Shown here: piece after piece, positions 43,855-48,309 of the stretch
Position numbering within the stretch: the first letter of the stretch is position 1
Layout of the letters: every line of letters starts with the position of its first letter
From: an uncultured Actinomycetota bacterium
GTDB taxonomy: Bacteria > Actinomycetota > Actinomycetes > Mycobacteriales > Mycobacteriaceae
DNA length: 64,000 nt
Reading direction: 5' to 3'
NCBI GenBank assembly: GCA_963795995.1
Contig: CAWCJY010000005.1
Location: forward strand, 44,726 to 108,725
Made by a program: the position numbers and the translations under genes
The notes under the pieces: generated by a model
What the model was told of the DNA's origin: nothing
The model's input: only the letters and a program-made list of their open reading frames with translations
Databases searched by the model: none

Positions 43855-44220
43855 ATGTCGCGCCTCTTCTTGAGCCACTCAAGCGTCAACAATGCCGAAG
43901 CTGTTGGCATGCGTGACTGGCTTGCCAGCGAAGGCTGGGAGGACCTATTCCTCGACCTCGATCCCGAGCGAGGCATCGCGGGCGGCGAGCGGTGGGAGCG
44001 CGCCCTCAACGAGGCCGCCGCGCGCTGTGAGGCTGTGCTATTTCTGGTCTCCGGGGCTTGGCTGGCTTCTGAGTGGTGCCAGAAAGAGCTGTCCCTCGCG
44101 CATAAGCTCGATAAGCGCTTATTTGGCGTGCTGATCGAAGGTATCGACCCTGCCGCGTTACCGCCGGACCTGAGCGACACTTTTCAAGTCGTCGACCTGG
44201 CTTCAGGGCGGGACCACCGG
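43855..44220 (+). other. TIR domain (approximate boundaries)
   Basis: [96 protein letters not shown]. This has the beta-A FLSHS start, the E..L....C..vl.lvS block and the SxWCxxEL motif with the putative catalytic Glu at 44086-44088. Confidence 0.8.
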
Positions 44221-47200: not shown

Positions 47201-48309
47201 CAAAACCTCTGATTGGCCATCAAGGCCCTGTGACGAGCGTGGCGATGAGTCCTGATCGCCGTCACATCGCATCAGGAGGCGTGGACGGGACGGTACGGCT
47301 ATGGGATTCTCACACCGGTATCGAGATCAACAAGATGACCGAGCCTGCAGGGGTCATCACCCGTGTGGCGTTCAACCAGGCCGGCGACGTGGTCGCTTCC
47401 GGAAGCGCGGACGGAAAGATCCGATTGTGGGACTTGACTACGGGCATCGTCACGCCGATTGACACTGGACGGCCGGTATCCGTGATCGCGCTAAATCGTG
47501 ACAGTAGTCGTCTGGCCTCCGCGGGAATCGACGGGCAGATCACGATCTGGGAGTTACCGTCTGGGCGAGTGACCCGGCTAGAGAATAGGGACCGCGCGAT
47601 GGTTTTCGACATCGCGTTCAATCCGCAGGGCGATCGATTGGCATCGGGCGGCGTAGCCGGGATTGTGCGTTTATGGCAACTCAACGGCCGGGAGGTGTGG
47701 GAGGCTGACGCCGCCGCCGAACTACCGGAATCGTTCAGCGACCAGTGGTCGCTGGCGATCGGACATCCCGGTGAGATCCTTGGTCTCGCGTTCAGTCCGG
47801 ACGGCCGCCGGCTGGCGTCCGGAAGTACCGTTTGGGGGATAGCGAACGGTGGGTCGGCCATCGGAGTGATCCAGCGCTGGAGTGCCGACACCGGCAGGCC
47901 GCTGGGCGGCCCAGCAGAAATCGGTAACGCAGGGATGGGTCTAGCGTTCAGTTCCCAATCGACCAACCCATCGGAGGACCGCGTCGTCGTGGGAAGCTTC
48001 GACCCCTATAACGTGCAGCTGTGGAGCGCCAGCGATGGGAGCCAATACACCTTCACGGGTCACGAAGGTCAAGTCGTAAGCGTCGCGGTTAGCCCCGACC
48101 GCACCCGCATCCTGTCCGGTAGCGTCGATGGAACCGTCAGAATATGGCCGAACCCAGCCCCAATCCCAGCCGTGGCCGCCGACGCCATATGCACCAAACT
48201 AACGACGACCATTAGCCGGGAACATTGGAATCGATGGGTGTCGCCACAGATCCCCTACCGAGACCTGTGCCCTGGGCTACCGCCGACTCCCGCTGGAATG
48301 CCTGACTAG
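43855..48309 (+). CDS. TIR domain / STAND P-loop NTPase (nSTAND1-like) / single hydrophobic helix / 14x WD40-repeat protein (candidate NLR-like immune sensor)
   Basis: Uninterrupted 1,484-aa ORF from ATG 43855 (an alternative GTG at 43816 adds 13 aa). See the sub-features below. It contains in-frame rare codons (TTA at 44503, 44638, 45190, 46300; AGA-ATA at 48139-48144). Confidence 0.9.
   Translation: [1484 protein letters not shown]
44371..45225 (+). other. STAND-type P-loop NTPase module (approximate boundaries)
   Basis: Pre-P-loop motif [20 protein letters not shown]. Walker A GASGAGKS lies at 44506-44529. The Walker-B/sensor-like [12 protein letters not shown] lies at about 44812-44847. 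A helical/winged-helix-like region follows. Confidence 0.75.
45934..45996 (+). other. predicted transmembrane (or strongly hydrophobic) helix between NTPase and WD40 modules
   Basis: [21 protein letters not shown] is flanked by LRKRSR on the N-side and SARQERRE on the C-side, and is preceded by a charged coiled-coil segment ([26 protein letters not shown]). Confidence 0.6.
46228..48150 (+). other. 14 WD40 repeats (two predicted 7-bladed beta-propellers)
   Basis: I counted 14 units of the pattern H.[23 protein letters not shown]. Examples are [90 protein letters not shown] and [30 protein letters not shown]. Confidence 0.85.

What the first reader, a model, noticed from the sequence alone, without database searches (positions are those of the whole stretch)
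43855..48309. 1,484-aa TIR / STAND NTPase / hydrophobic helix / 14x WD40 protein: candidate NLR-like, NAD-targeting immune sensor in a mycobacterial chromosome
All four modules are read directly from the translation. (i) The N-terminal ~120 aa have a bacterial TIR layout ([10 protein letters not shown]..., ...[23 protein letters not shown]). (ii) [20 protein letters not shown] is followed by Walker A [17 protein letters not shown] and [12 protein letters not shown]. I associate this motif set with the 'novel STAND' (nSTAND1-type) NTPases that are normally fused to WD40/TPR sensor arrays. (iii) A charged coiled coil and one hydrophobic helix follow. (iv) There are 14 WD40 repeats and a short Cys-containing tail. 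The effector, STAND switch and repeat sensor arrangement is the logic of Avs/bNACHT antiviral STANDs and of eukaryotic NLRs. TIR is the NAD-consuming or signal-producing effector of Thoeris, some CBASS systems and plant TNLs. Comparative genomics has listed TIR-STAND-WD40 fusions as predicted conflict systems. To my knowledge none has been tested in Mycobacterium, and this single-gene architecture is not among the named, validated defence systems. Its trigger, output and physiological role are therefore open.
Basis: partly seen in the sequence, partly recalled or inferred. Interest (0 to 1): 0.85.

Follow-up and report, generated by a model that had tools for sequence, protein, structure and literature searches.

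The report
Membrane-spanning TIR–STAND–WD40 receptor with partner
This soil Mycobacterium carries an accessory two-gene module: an NLR-like protein whose TIR enzyme and ATPase switch are predicted to sit inside the cell while its WD40 sensor sits outside the membrane, next to a small membrane protein that copies a receptor-kinase sensor domain, which suggests a bacterial "outside-in" immune-type receptor that nobody has yet tested.

Summary
ORF 43855-48309 encodes a 1,484-aa protein with TIR_2 (E 9e-16), nSTAND1 (E 3e-68), one strong TM helix, 14 WD40 blades and a Cys-bearing tail.

The interpretation needs two corrections.

(1) It is not a cytosolic Avs/bNACHT-type sensor. The TM helix is conserved across the family. 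The positive-inside rule holds in 160 of 164 relatives and is never reversed. Post-TM cysteines are even-numbered in 153 of 164, and the tail Cys pair is invariant. So the WD40 array is predicted to be extracytoplasmic, with TIR and the NTPase cytosolic.

(2) It is not a single gene. A convergent 170-aa membrane protein (48320-48832) accompanies such genes in all 12 partner loci examined, across at least 5 genomic contexts. Its 4-Cys ectodomain is homologous to the extracellular C-terminal domain of actinobacterial receptor Ser/Thr kinases.

The module is accessory: 3 of 80 Mycobacterium species carry it at a variable SbcC-like/oppA hotspot. The ectodomain and partner evolve faster than the cytosolic half. 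TIR Glu78 and the Walker motifs are invariant.

An immune role, NADase output and the trigger remain inferred. I rate it a new variant of a known kind (the predicted nSTAND1 conflict systems).

The parts
43855..48309 (+). Gene for the 1,484-aa TIR / nSTAND1 / TM / 14xWD40 / Cys-cap protein (stop codon at 48307-48309)
43867..44226 (+). TIR_2 domain (res 5-124), predicted cytosolic. The putative catalytic Glu78 codon is at 44086-44088.
   Evidence: Pfam E 9.3e-16. E78 is invariant in 44 of 44 TIR-bearing relatives. It aligns with the WCxxE motif of TLR2/TLR15 TIR and of PDB 9m0n.
44371..45654 (+). nSTAND1 NTPase module (res 173-600). Walker A [9 protein letters not shown] is at 44506-44532. Walker B [10 protein letters not shown] is at 44812-44841.
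   Evidence: Pfam E 2.9e-68. Walker residues are invariant. Foldseek matches RPP1 NB-ARC and Orc1/Cdc6.
45739..45897 (+). Long charged helix (res 629-681) between the NTPase and the membrane
   Evidence: AF2 secondary structure
45934..46002 (+). Single transmembrane helix (res 694-716), preceded by RKRSR; predicted orientation N-in / C-out
   Evidence: KD 2.26. A TM helix is present in 116 of 120 and 54 of 58 relatives. The positive-inside rule holds in 160 of 164.
46003..46203 (+). Helical stalk (res 717-783), predicted extracytoplasmic
   Evidence: AF2
46204..48150 (+). 14 WD40 blades forming two 7-bladed propellers (res 784-1432), predicted extracytoplasmic. C833 and C847 lie in an insert.
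48151..48306 (+). C-terminal helical cap with an invariant Cys pair (C1446 at 48190-48192; C1472 at 48268-48270). It has no Pfam model.
   Evidence: C730/C756 of alignment A2 are invariant in 44 of 44. The cap recurs in 42 of 58 nSTAND1-WD40 relatives. No Pfam hit.
48320..48832 (-). Partner gene: a 170-aa type-II membrane protein. It has a Pro-rich cytosolic N-terminus with RPWWKRR, a TM helix at ~48659-48727, and a ~95-aa ectodomain with 4 invariant Cys at 48323-48610. It is convergent, with its stop codon 10 nt from the big gene's stop.
   Evidence: Homologs sit immediately downstream and convergent in L001, L003, L004, L007, L083, L084, L085, L086, L087 and L088. The profile matches the C-terminal extracellular domain of receptor Ser/Thr kinases.
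41023..43629 (+). Left boundary of the hotspot: conserved SbcC-like ABC ATPase (Rv1278-like by my memory of the M. tuberculosis map)
49090..50778 (-). Right boundary of the hotspot: oppA (SBP_bac_5), first gene of the oppABCD cluster

Best explanation
This is a two-gene, membrane-spanning NLR-like module. The large protein is a type-II single-pass membrane protein. Its N-terminal TIR domain and nSTAND1 ATPase are in the cytoplasm. One TM helix crosses the membrane. A helical stalk, two 7-bladed WD40 propellers and a disulfide-stapled cap lie in the cell-envelope space. The small partner is also anchored N-in/C-out and displays a 4-Cys domain of the kind that actinobacterial receptor Ser/Thr kinases use as their extracellular sensor. 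The proposed mechanism is inferred, not shown. A ligand or perturbation at the envelope is registered by the WD40/partner ectodomains. Candidate triggers are a phage tail or ejection component, a lytic enzyme or another invader-derived factor, or loss or modification of the partner. The signal passes through the continuous TM-stalk helix and the long juxtamembrane helix to the nSTAND1 switch. The switch exchanges nucleotide and oligomerises in the plane of the membrane. The clustered TIR domains then form a composite NADase site around Glu78 and consume NAD+ (or make an NAD-derived signal), arresting the cell as in TIR-based abortive infection. Shown here: the domain composition, the conservation of catalytic and Walker residues, the predicted topology, the partner linkage, the accessory and hotspot status, and the faster evolution of the ectodomain and partner. 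Inferred: ligand identity, a direct WD40-partner contact, NADase output and an immune role.
For: Domains. E78, K224, D325 and E328 are invariant. The N-half model (pLDDT 87.9) best matches the plant TNL RPP1 resistosome (7dfv/7crc, E 6e-8). Topology: a TM helix follows the NTPase in 116 of 120 closest relatives, whether the sensor is WD40 or FGE-sulfatase, and in 54 of 58 WD40-type relatives. Mean K+R is 5.99 in the N-flank and 2.19 in the C-flank; the N-flank is richer in 160 of 164 and the C-flank in none (p 2e-28). The post-TM Cys count is even in 153 of 164. The tail Cys pair is invariant. Homologous WD40 arrays also occur behind kinase-TM modules, and TIR-TM-WD40 proteins exist with no NTPase at all (P0136, P0131). 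Partner: it is homologous, convergent and 6-36 bp downstream of intact genes in every partner-bearing locus examined, covering at least 5 contexts, and P0243/P0121 have consecutive locus tags. Its profile hits 1,744 clusters. All 9 long hits tested are Pkinase proteins, and 32 of 32 kinase hits have exactly one TM before this C-terminal domain. Conflict-like evolution: only 3 of 80 species representatives carry the module at this site, and the SbcC-oppA gap ranges from 0 to 6.5 kb with other cargo. A 40%-identical allele sits at the same site in the closest species (L003). Against L004, dN/dS is 0.41 for the partner, 0.26 for the ecto-half and 0.13 for the cyto-half, while dS is 0.27 for the cyto-half against 0.50-0.60 for the flanks. 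Relatives occur on 111 plasmids.
Against: There is no experiment of any kind. Topology rests on sequence statistics, and for the window protein alone the charge bias is modest (5 vs 4 K+R, with 0 vs 2 D+E). No known defence genes are adjacent and the neighbourhood is housekeeping (opp, SbcCD-like, lipoproteins). PADLOC has no hit. Ortholog variation is not concentrated on the canonical WD40 top-face hotspots, and all dN/dS values are below 1, so positive selection is not demonstrated. The partner is absent next to the 63%-identical homolog in L002 and next to an FGE-type relative, so it is not obligatory for the wider family. Convergent adjacency could reflect co-transfer rather than physical interaction. 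Several copies are fragmented (L001, L007, L085, L087), though these are mostly long-read MAGs where frameshift errors are plausible.
Confidence: 0.5

Rival explanations
1. One reading: a single-gene cytosolic Avs/bNACHT-like antiviral STAND. The WD40 array binds a phage protein inside the cell, and the hydrophobic helix is only a membrane tether or a buried helix.
For: The tripartite effector-NTPase-repeat order matches Avs, bNACHT and NLRs. The 2026 STAND census treats WD40 and FGE sensors as intracellular pattern-recognition modules.
Against: A single TM helix necessarily puts the two halves on opposite sides, and TIR and the NTPase need cytosolic NAD+ and ATP. The charge bias, even Cys counts and invariant Cys pair are family-wide. 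The TM helix is conserved across two unrelated sensor types. The linked partner is itself a TM protein with a receptor-kinase ectodomain. There are no PADLOC Avs or bNACHT hits.
Confidence: 0.1
2. A non-immune envelope signalling receptor. The WD40/partner ectodomains monitor an endogenous cue such as cell-wall status, peptidoglycan fragments, kin contact or cording. The STAND-TIR half converts this into a physiological switch such as dormancy or an NAD-derived second messenger, analogous to receptor Ser/Thr kinases.
For: The partner ectodomain is shared with receptor kinases that are generally physiological sensors. The genomic context is housekeeping with no defence island. Amidase_3, beta-lactamase-like and LytR genes lie next to the module in some contexts (L084, L085, L087, L088). 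STAND clades switch between defence and regulatory roles.
Against: The distribution is patchy and hotspot-borne, with deeply divergent alleles at one site. Some copies are fragmented. Relatives are plasmid-borne and show cross-phylum similarity. The sensor and partner evolve quickly. The TIR has an invariant catalytic Glu and no dedicated downstream reader gene nearby. These are the features of conflict systems, not of core signalling.
Confidence: 0.25
3. A decaying or silent horizontally acquired relic with no current function in this strain.
For: Fragmented copies exist in L001, L007, L085 and L087. No sigma-70-like promoter was detected upstream. GC3 is slightly lower than in the flanks.
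Against: The 4.45-kb frame is intact in the window and in L004, L003, L086 and L088. dN/dS is 0.13-0.26 against L004, which indicates purifying selection. All catalytic residues are retained. The sigma-70 consensus scan is uninformative for mycobacteria. The fragmented copies come from MAG assemblies where indel errors are plausible.
Confidence: 0.05

Closest known systems
nSTAND1-centred predicted conflict systems (Kaur, Burroughs, Iyer & Aravind, eLife 2021, PMC8195603; Pfam PF20703)
   Same: The NTPase is a full-length, high-scoring nSTAND1. It has an N-terminal TIR effector and a C-terminal repeat or FGE-type sensor, as described for this clade.
   Different: In the papers I could read, the family is described by domain composition. 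I did not find the single TM helix, the predicted extracytoplasmic position of the WD40/FGE sensor, the conserved Cys cap or the linked small partner gene described there. None has been tested experimentally.
Plant TIR-NLRs (RPP1, ROQ1) and the Apaf-1 apoptosome
   Same: Best structural match of the N-half is RPP1, covering TIR plus NB-ARC. The sensor is a tandem of two beta-propellers, as in Apaf-1. The expected logic is ligand-induced oligomerisation that brings TIR domains together into an NADase (established for RPP1 and ROQ1).
   Different: Those proteins are soluble cytosolic receptors with LRR (TNL) or CARD (Apaf-1) modules. Sequence identity is only 12-18%. Here a TM helix separates the switch from the sensor.
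Animal Toll-like receptors (by analogy only)
   Same: The topology is an extracytoplasmic solenoid or repeat sensor, a single TM helix and a cytosolic TIR. This is clearest in the NTPase-less TIR-TM-WD40 relatives P0136 and P0131.
   Different: The polarity is inverted (TIR at the N-terminus, type-II), the sensor is WD40 rather than LRR, an NTPase is interposed, and the TIR is of the bacterial TIR_2 type with a catalytic Glu. There is no evidence of common descent of the architecture.
Avs / bNACHT antiviral STANDs (Gao 2022; Kibby 2022-23; Nature 2026 census PMC13581612)
   Same: Both belong to the STAND superfamily and have an effector-NTPase-sensor order. Some members carry TIR effectors. 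[quoted passage not shown]
   Different: The NTPase clade is different (nSTAND1). No PADLOC Avs or bNACHT model matches. Validated members sense phage proteins in the cytosol through TPR-like sensors. None of the validated systems has an extracytoplasmic WD40 sensor or this partner.
Actinobacterial receptor Ser/Thr kinases with extracellular sensor domains (for example PknD with its NHL propeller; from established knowledge)
   Same: The layout is a cytosolic catalytic module, one TM helix and an extracellular beta-propeller or small Cys-rich sensor. The partner's ectodomain is homologous to the C-terminal ectodomain of many such kinases. Kinase-TM-WD40 relatives of the propeller array also exist.
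   Different: The output here is TIR plus a STAND ATPase rather than phosphorylation, and the kinase-type ectodomain is on a separate small protein.

Membership tests
nSTAND1 STAND NTPase (Pfam PF20703) | Full-length match to the family HMM above the gathering score | tested here: met
   231.7 bits against a cutoff of 27.1; residues 173-600 cover profile positions 1-377 of 379
nSTAND1 STAND NTPase (Pfam PF20703) | Intact P-loop (Walker A GxxxxGK[ST]) and Walker B acidic residues | tested here: met
   GASGAGKSS with K224, and hhhhDQGEE with D325/E328; all invariant in 60 sequences
nSTAND1 STAND NTPase (Pfam PF20703) | NTP-dependent oligomerisation switch | not testable with these tools
   Only fold similarity to RPP1 NB-ARC and Orc1/Cdc6
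TIR domain, NADase-competent (Pfam TIR_2 PF13676) | HMM match above the gathering score | tested here: met
   58.9 bits against a cutoff of 28, residues 5-124
TIR domain, NADase-competent (Pfam TIR_2 PF13676) | Conserved catalytic glutamate in the WxxxE motif (equivalent to SARM1 E642, from established knowledge) | tested here: met
   E78 in SEWCQKE78L aligns with the WC.YE/WV.KE motif of TLR2/TLR15 and 9m0n. It is invariant in 44 of 44 relatives.
TIR domain, NADase-competent (Pfam TIR_2 PF13676) | NAD+ cleavage or signal production | not testable with these tools
   Needs an enzymatic assay
Avs (antiviral STAND) families | Match to Avs NTPase/sensor models; cytosolic TPR-like sensor binding phage terminase, portal or other core proteins | tested here: not met
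   PADLOC returned no Avs hit; the only hits were a WD40-driven HEAT-ARM_XIII hit and sub-threshold mad3 and ThsB hits. The sensor is WD40 behind a TM helix.
bNACHT (bacterial NLR-related NACHT proteins) | NACHT-clade NTPase module | tested here: not met
   The best NTPase model is nSTAND1. The precomputed Pfam lists of 120 close relatives show nSTAND1 and AAA_16, with NACHT in only one. There is no bNACHT hit in PADLOC.
Thoeris | ThsB-type TIR sensor plus a ThsA (SIR2/SLOG or TM/Macro) effector gene nearby | tested here: not met
   ThsB matches are only E 0.007 (PADLOC) and 0.013 (Pfam). No ThsA-like neighbour is present.
Single-pass type-II membrane receptor (N-in, C-out) | One TM helix, positive-inside charge bias, and disulfide-competent cysteines on the outer side | tested here: met
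   KD 2.26. Family-wide K+R is 5.99 against 2.19, with the N-flank richer in 160 of 164. Cys counts are even in 153 of 164. The Cys pair is invariant. This is a prediction only; experimental topology is not testable here.
Toll-like receptor architecture | Extracellular LRR ectodomain, TM helix and C-terminal TIR of the TLR/IL-1R type | tested here: not met
   There is no LRR. The TIR is N-terminal and of the TIR_2 type; PF01582 scores only E 0.008, below its cutoff. The resemblance is topological only.
Receptor Ser/Thr-kinase C-terminal 4-Cys ectodomain (unnamed; applies to the partner protein) | Profile-level homology, four conserved Cys, and a position directly after a single TM helix at the extreme C-terminus | tested here: met
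   1,744 hits, 575 at E<=1e-10. All 9 long hits tested are Pkinase. 32 of 32 have one TM helix between the kinase and the domain, and 31 of 32 have 4 Cys. C85, C108, C146 and C155 are invariant.

The most novel reading that the evidence does not exclude
The module is a bacterial extracytoplasmic pattern-recognition receptor that works by a guard/decoy principle. The small partner is a free-standing decoy of the ectodomain of a receptor Ser/Thr kinase. A phage receptor-binding protein, lysin or competitor toxin engages that ectodomain in the cell envelope. The WD40 propellers monitor the partner from the same compartment and, when it is bound or altered, switch on the cytosolic nSTAND1-TIR NADase across the membrane. 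That would be the first outside-in STAND/NLR and a functional TLR/NLR hybrid in bacteria, detecting attack before anything enters the cytoplasm.
Probability: 0.15. Interest if true: 0.85.

Novelty: new variant of a known kind. Interest (0 to 1): 0.62.

Why it matters
All bacterial STAND/NLR-like immune sensors validated so far, as far as I know and as far as the papers read here show, detect phage proteins inside the cell. If this family really places its sensor outside the membrane, it extends NLR-type immunity to surveillance of the cell envelope. It also provides a simple two-gene model for transmembrane activation of a STAND ATPase and a TIR NADase. It would assign a role to an uncharacterised ectodomain shared with many actinobacterial receptor kinases. 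The module is absent from most mycobacteria but present in environmental species, so it can be tested by transfer into M. smegmatis. The minimal TIR-TM-WD40 relatives also offer a natural dissection of what the NTPase adds.

Tried and rejected
(1) WD40 top-face diversification. Stacking 10 canonical repeats and scoring ortholog entropy gave 0.66 at hotspot registers (-19, -17, -1) against 0.58 elsewhere, so there is no enrichment. The Mann-Whitney test failed because of NaN values.

(2) Recent repeat expansion. Tandem Repeats Finder found no DNA-level WD40 repeat identity.

(3) PADLOC and NCBIfam naming. There were no meaningful hits for the gene, its variants or the partner.

(4) PDB by sequence. 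Nothing was found for the nSTAND1 module or the partner profile. The TIR gave only weak hits.

(5) A comparable partner next to an FGE-sulfatase-type relative. None was found in L089.

(6) Promoter and terminator scan. No sigma-70-like promoter was found and no terminator lies between the convergent genes. The scan is uninformative for mycobacteria.

(7) Contig look-ups for P0123, P0265 and P0010. These were not on record.

(8) Extra copies in the window of the partner ectodomain, TIR or nSTAND1. None were found.

(9) Phage-borne relatives. Only two distant nSTAND1-like hits (28% identity) were found on unannotated gut phage contigs.

(10) Literature searches for an explicit description of a TM-spanning nSTAND1/WD40 receptor. 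I found only general remarks about TM-bearing NACHT proteins.

(11) One search failed because I included an invalid 12-residue test string. It was repeated correctly.

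
Full report
OBSERVATION. The ORF is real. The maximal frame is 43816-48309 (+). Pfam gives TIR_2 at residues 5-124 (E 9.3e-16, 58.9 bits against a cutoff of 28), nSTAND1 at residues 173-600 (E 2.9e-68) and WD40 (E 1e-89). Exactly one segment is strongly hydrophobic: residues ~694-716, Kyte-Doolittle 2.26, preceded by RKRSR. AlphaFold2 models of both halves are confident. For residues 1-760, pLDDT is 87.9 and pTM 0.76. The model shows a TIR fold, the NTPase with helical and winged-helix modules, a long helix at 629-681, and a continuous helix at 691-744 that contains the TM segment. 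For residues 717-1484, pLDDT is 91.0 and pTM 0.88. The model shows three stalk helices, 14 four-stranded blades and a small helical cap. Foldseek matches the N-half best to the plant TIR-NLR RPP1 (7dfv/7crc, E 6e-8) and then to Orc1/Cdc6. It matches the C-half to a 14-bladed Nostoc propeller (2ymu), Aip1 and Apaf-1. All four modules and the Cys tail are therefore confirmed.

CATALYTIC COMPETENCE. In a 60-sequence alignment, Walker A (G221, G223, K224, S226) and Walker B (D325, Q326, E328) are invariant. Glu78 lies in SEWCQKE78L. It aligns with the WCxxE motif of TLR2/TLR15 TIR domains and of the TIR-containing PDB entry 9m0n. It is invariant in all 44 TIR-bearing relatives, together with S7, H8, G44 and W47. 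By established knowledge this glutamate is the NADase catalytic residue of SARM1, plant and bacterial TIRs. The activity itself is not shown here.

TOPOLOGY: THE MAIN CORRECTION. A single TM helix forces the two halves onto opposite sides of the membrane, and TIR and the NTPase need cytosolic NAD+ and ATP. Several lines of family-level evidence support an N-in/C-out orientation:
- A TM helix directly after the NTPase is present in 116 of the 120 closest relatives of residues 1-800, whether the C-terminal domain is WD40 or FGE-sulfatase. It is also present in 54 of 58 Walker-A-bearing relatives of the WD40 half.
- Across 164 proteins, the 15 residues before the helix carry a mean of 5.99 K+R against 2.19 after it. 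The N-flank is richer in 160 cases, equal in 4 and poorer in none (Wilcoxon p 2e-28).
- The post-TM region has an even number of cysteines in 153 of 164 proteins (8 in FGE types, 2 or 4 in WD40 types).
- The two tail cysteines, C1446 and C1472, are invariant in 44 of 44 aligned ectodomains. The tail motif LC.KL..NMS..W..W.SP.I.Y..CP.LP recurs in 42 of 58 relatives, including distant ones, and has no Pfam model.
- Related WD40 arrays also occur behind Ser/Thr-kinase-TM modules. Fungal NACHT-WD40 hits have neither the TM helix nor the tail.
- A subfamily (P0136, P0131, and by length and TM position P0129 and P0140) is TIR-TM-WD40 with no room for an NTPase and no nSTAND1 hit. That is a Toll-like-receptor-like topology.
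For the window protein alone the charge bias is modest (5 vs 4 K+R; 0 vs 2 D+E). The argument is therefore a family-level prediction, not a measurement.

A CONSERVED PARTNER GENE: THE SECOND CORRECTION. The ORF at 48320-48832 (-) lies ten nucleotides beyond the stop codon, convergently. It encodes 170 aa: a Pro-rich N-terminus ending in RRPWWKRR, a TM helix, and a ~95-aa C-terminal domain with four cysteines. It has no Pfam or PADLOC hit. Homologs (42-66% identity, E 1e-30 to 1e-78) occupy the same convergent position 6-36 bp after intact STAND-WD40 genes. This holds at the same chromosomal site in L001, L003, L004 and L007 and at unrelated sites in L083, L084 and L085. Starting instead from partner homologs, L086, L087 and L088 each have a TIR-nSTAND1-WD40 gene next door, and P0243 and P0121 carry consecutive NCBI locus tags. 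Linkage therefore holds in 12 of 12 partner loci across at least five genomic contexts. The 63%-identical homolog in L002 lacks the partner and has a TPR-S gene instead. An FGE-type relative also lacks it.

A word-based search found only 36 close relatives, all labelled hypothetical and all named examples from Mycobacterium. A profile of these (alignment A3; invariant C85, C108, C146, C155) searched against 1.84 billion representatives found 1,744 hits, 575 of them at E<=1e-10. In many hits the domain is the extreme C-terminus of long proteins. All nine long proteins tested have an N-terminal Pkinase domain. In 32 of 32 kinase hits exactly one TM helix separates the kinase from this domain, and 31 of 32 keep the four cysteines. 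No solved structure matches the profile. The partner is thus a free-standing, membrane-anchored copy of an extracellular sensor domain of actinobacterial receptor kinases. This is independent support for an extracytoplasmic site of action.

GENOMIC STATUS. Neighbours are a His_Phos_1 gene, a VWA gene, a Metallophos/SbcC-like pair, then the module, then oppA-D-C-B. From memory, this is the Rv1276c-Rv1283c region of M. tuberculosis. I used the SbcC-like protein to fetch 80 species-representative Mycobacterium loci. The best match is 83% identical, so the source species is not itself a representative. Its closest relatives are MAGs of the MFD series. The distance from the SbcC-like gene to oppA ranges from about 0 to 6.5 kb. 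Most species have nothing there, or a ~415-aa gene, or a GMC-oxidoreductase plus that gene, and L070 and L080 carry other cargo. Only L003, L004 and L007, plus the metagenomic L001, carry a STAND-WD40 gene at the site. L004 has an intact 1,483-aa ortholog. L003 is the closest species by its flanks, yet it has a 1,391-aa protein with an nSTAND1 domain, a WD40 array and a TIR-like N-terminus (MSRIFMSHSS) that is only ~40-46% identical. L001 and L007 are fragmented. The module is therefore accessory, sits in a variable hotspot, and exists as deeply divergent alleles. No integrase or other mobility gene flanks it. GC3 is 0.68-0.72 against 0.77-0.79 in the flanks.

EVOLUTION. Against L004, the cytosolic half is 93% identical (dN 0.033, dS 0.27, dN/dS 0.13). 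The ecto-half is 75% identical (dN 0.150, dS 0.57, dN/dS 0.26) and the partner is 67% identical (dS 0.50, dN/dS 0.41). The flanking genes have dS 0.50-0.60 and dN/dS 0.12-0.24. The ecto-half and the partner therefore diverge in step with the genome but accumulate more amino-acid change. The 5' half has been exchanged or homogenised more recently, giving a mosaic history. The TIR-nSTAND1 chassis (residues 1-640) is 64-72% identical to hundreds of TIR-nSTAND1-TM-FGE-sulfatase proteins from Xanthobacteraceae, Methylovirgula and Mycobacterium MAGs. It is 54% identical to genes on Sinorhizobium and Rhizobium megaplasmids, and relatives occur on 111 plasmids. This indicates horizontal spread and sensor swapping on a conserved signalling chassis. 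I could not show positive selection: all dN/dS values are below 1, and ortholog variability is not enriched at canonical WD40 top-face positions.

MECHANISM. Best-supported reading (confidence about 0.5): an outside-in NLR-like receptor. An envelope-level event is registered by the WD40 propellers together with, or through, the partner ectodomain. The signal is transmitted via the continuous TM/stalk helix and the long juxtamembrane helix to the nSTAND1 switch. The switch oligomerises, and clustered TIR domains consume NAD+ or generate a signal around Glu78, arresting growth. Shown: the composition, conserved catalytic residues, predicted topology, partner linkage, accessory status, and faster evolution of the sensor and partner. 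Inferred: the trigger, a WD40-partner contact, NADase output and an immune purpose.

COMPARISON AND NOVELTY. The protein is a bona fide member of the nSTAND1 clade defined by Kaur et al. 2021. Proteins with this domain composition are already annotated in public databases. The 2026 STAND census lists WD40 and FGE-sulfatase sensors but frames recognition as intracellular and never discusses membranes. Kibby et al. and Dore et al. remark in passing that some TM-bearing NACHT proteins may sense periplasmic signals. In the literature available to me I found no description of the TM-spanning topology of the TIR-nSTAND1-WD40/FGE family, its Cys cap, the TIR-TM-WD40 minimal forms, or the linked kinase-ectodomain partner, and no experimental test. 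It is not an Avs, bNACHT or Thoeris member. I therefore rate it a new variant of a known kind, with interest 0.62. The fusion itself is not new. A predicted extracytoplasmic STAND sensor with a dedicated partner is unusual and can be tested directly.

Noticed in passing
L084:381-3299 (P0136); also P0131, P0129, P0140: Relatives of about 970-1,030 aa are TIR-TM-WD40-Cys-cap with no NTPase at all (TM at residues ~207-270). L084 still has the convergent partner gene. This is a minimal, TLR-like topology within the same family.
   Followed up: partly
P0007-P0120; L089:6001-8889; plasmid hits H3-H6: The TIR-nSTAND1 chassis (res 1-640) is 64-72% identical to hundreds of TIR-nSTAND1-TM-FGE-sulfatase proteins from Alphaproteobacteria and Mycobacterium MAGs. 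It is 54% identical to genes on Sinorhizobium and Rhizobium megaplasmids. This points to cross-phylum transfer and sensor swapping.
   Followed up: partly
L003:12743-16918: The species closest by flanking genes carries, at the same SbcC-like/oppA site, a 1,391-aa nSTAND1-WD40 protein with a TIR-like N-terminus that is only ~40-46% identical, plus a 52%-identical partner. These are deeply divergent alleles at one hotspot.
   Followed up: partly
window 38101-39756 (+): A 551-aa VWA-domain protein lies upstream of the Metallophos/SbcC-like pair. Among the fetched loci it is present only in the two closest relatives (L003, L004). Its ORF overlaps the annotated start region of the divergent His_Phos_1 ORF (37526-38359). 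There was no PADLOC hit and its function is unknown.
   Followed up: partly
L070:12646-18460; L080:12625-17447; L072; L020: Other species carry different cargo of 2.4-5.8 kb between the SbcC-like gene and oppA, for example a 594-aa ORF on the minus strand in L070. The site is a general variable hotspot, but I did not identify these genes.
   Followed up: no
L001:10001-14555; L007:12904-17413; L085:7531-10868; L087:3591-8050: Several copies of the big gene are split into 2-6 ORFs. Most come from MAG or metagenome assemblies with contig_N names, likely long-read assemblies, so pseudogenisation and indel errors cannot be told apart.
   Followed up: no
L085:5877-6524; L088:11135-11878; L087:1255-2949; L084:4509-6593: Amidase_3 (peptidoglycan amidase), beta-lactamase-like and LytR_cpsA_psr genes lie next to the module in several non-syntenic contexts. 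This may hint at a cell-wall connection, or it may be coincidence.
   Followed up: no
L002:8564-9916: The one close homolog without the partner (P0006) is instead followed on the same strand by a 451-aa protein with a TPR-S (Tetratricopeptide Repeats-Sensor) domain.
   Followed up: no
window 48307-48322: The stop codons of the two convergent genes are only 10 nt apart, with no terminator-like hairpin between them. The transcripts would overlap at their 3' ends, so antisense interference is possible. The tight spacing (6-36 bp) is conserved in other loci.
   Followed up: partly
window 43855-45933 compared with 46003-48306: Against the L004 ortholog, synonymous divergence of the cytosolic half (dS 0.27) is about half that of the ecto-half, the partner and both flanking genes (0.50-0.60). 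This suggests a more recent recombinational exchange of the 5' half.
   Followed up: partly
window 46351-46395 (C833, C847): A second Cys pair sits in an insert after the first blade (lower pLDDT, ~64, around C-half residues 120-130). I did not check its conservation across the family.
   Followed up: no
window 41023-43629: The N-terminal ~60-90 residues of the SbcC-like neighbour hit many PADLOC ABC-ATPase models (AriA, LmuB, GajA, PtuA). The gene is conserved in all 80 Mycobacterium loci, including M. leprae, so this looks like generic P-loop similarity rather than a defence gene.
   Followed up: partly
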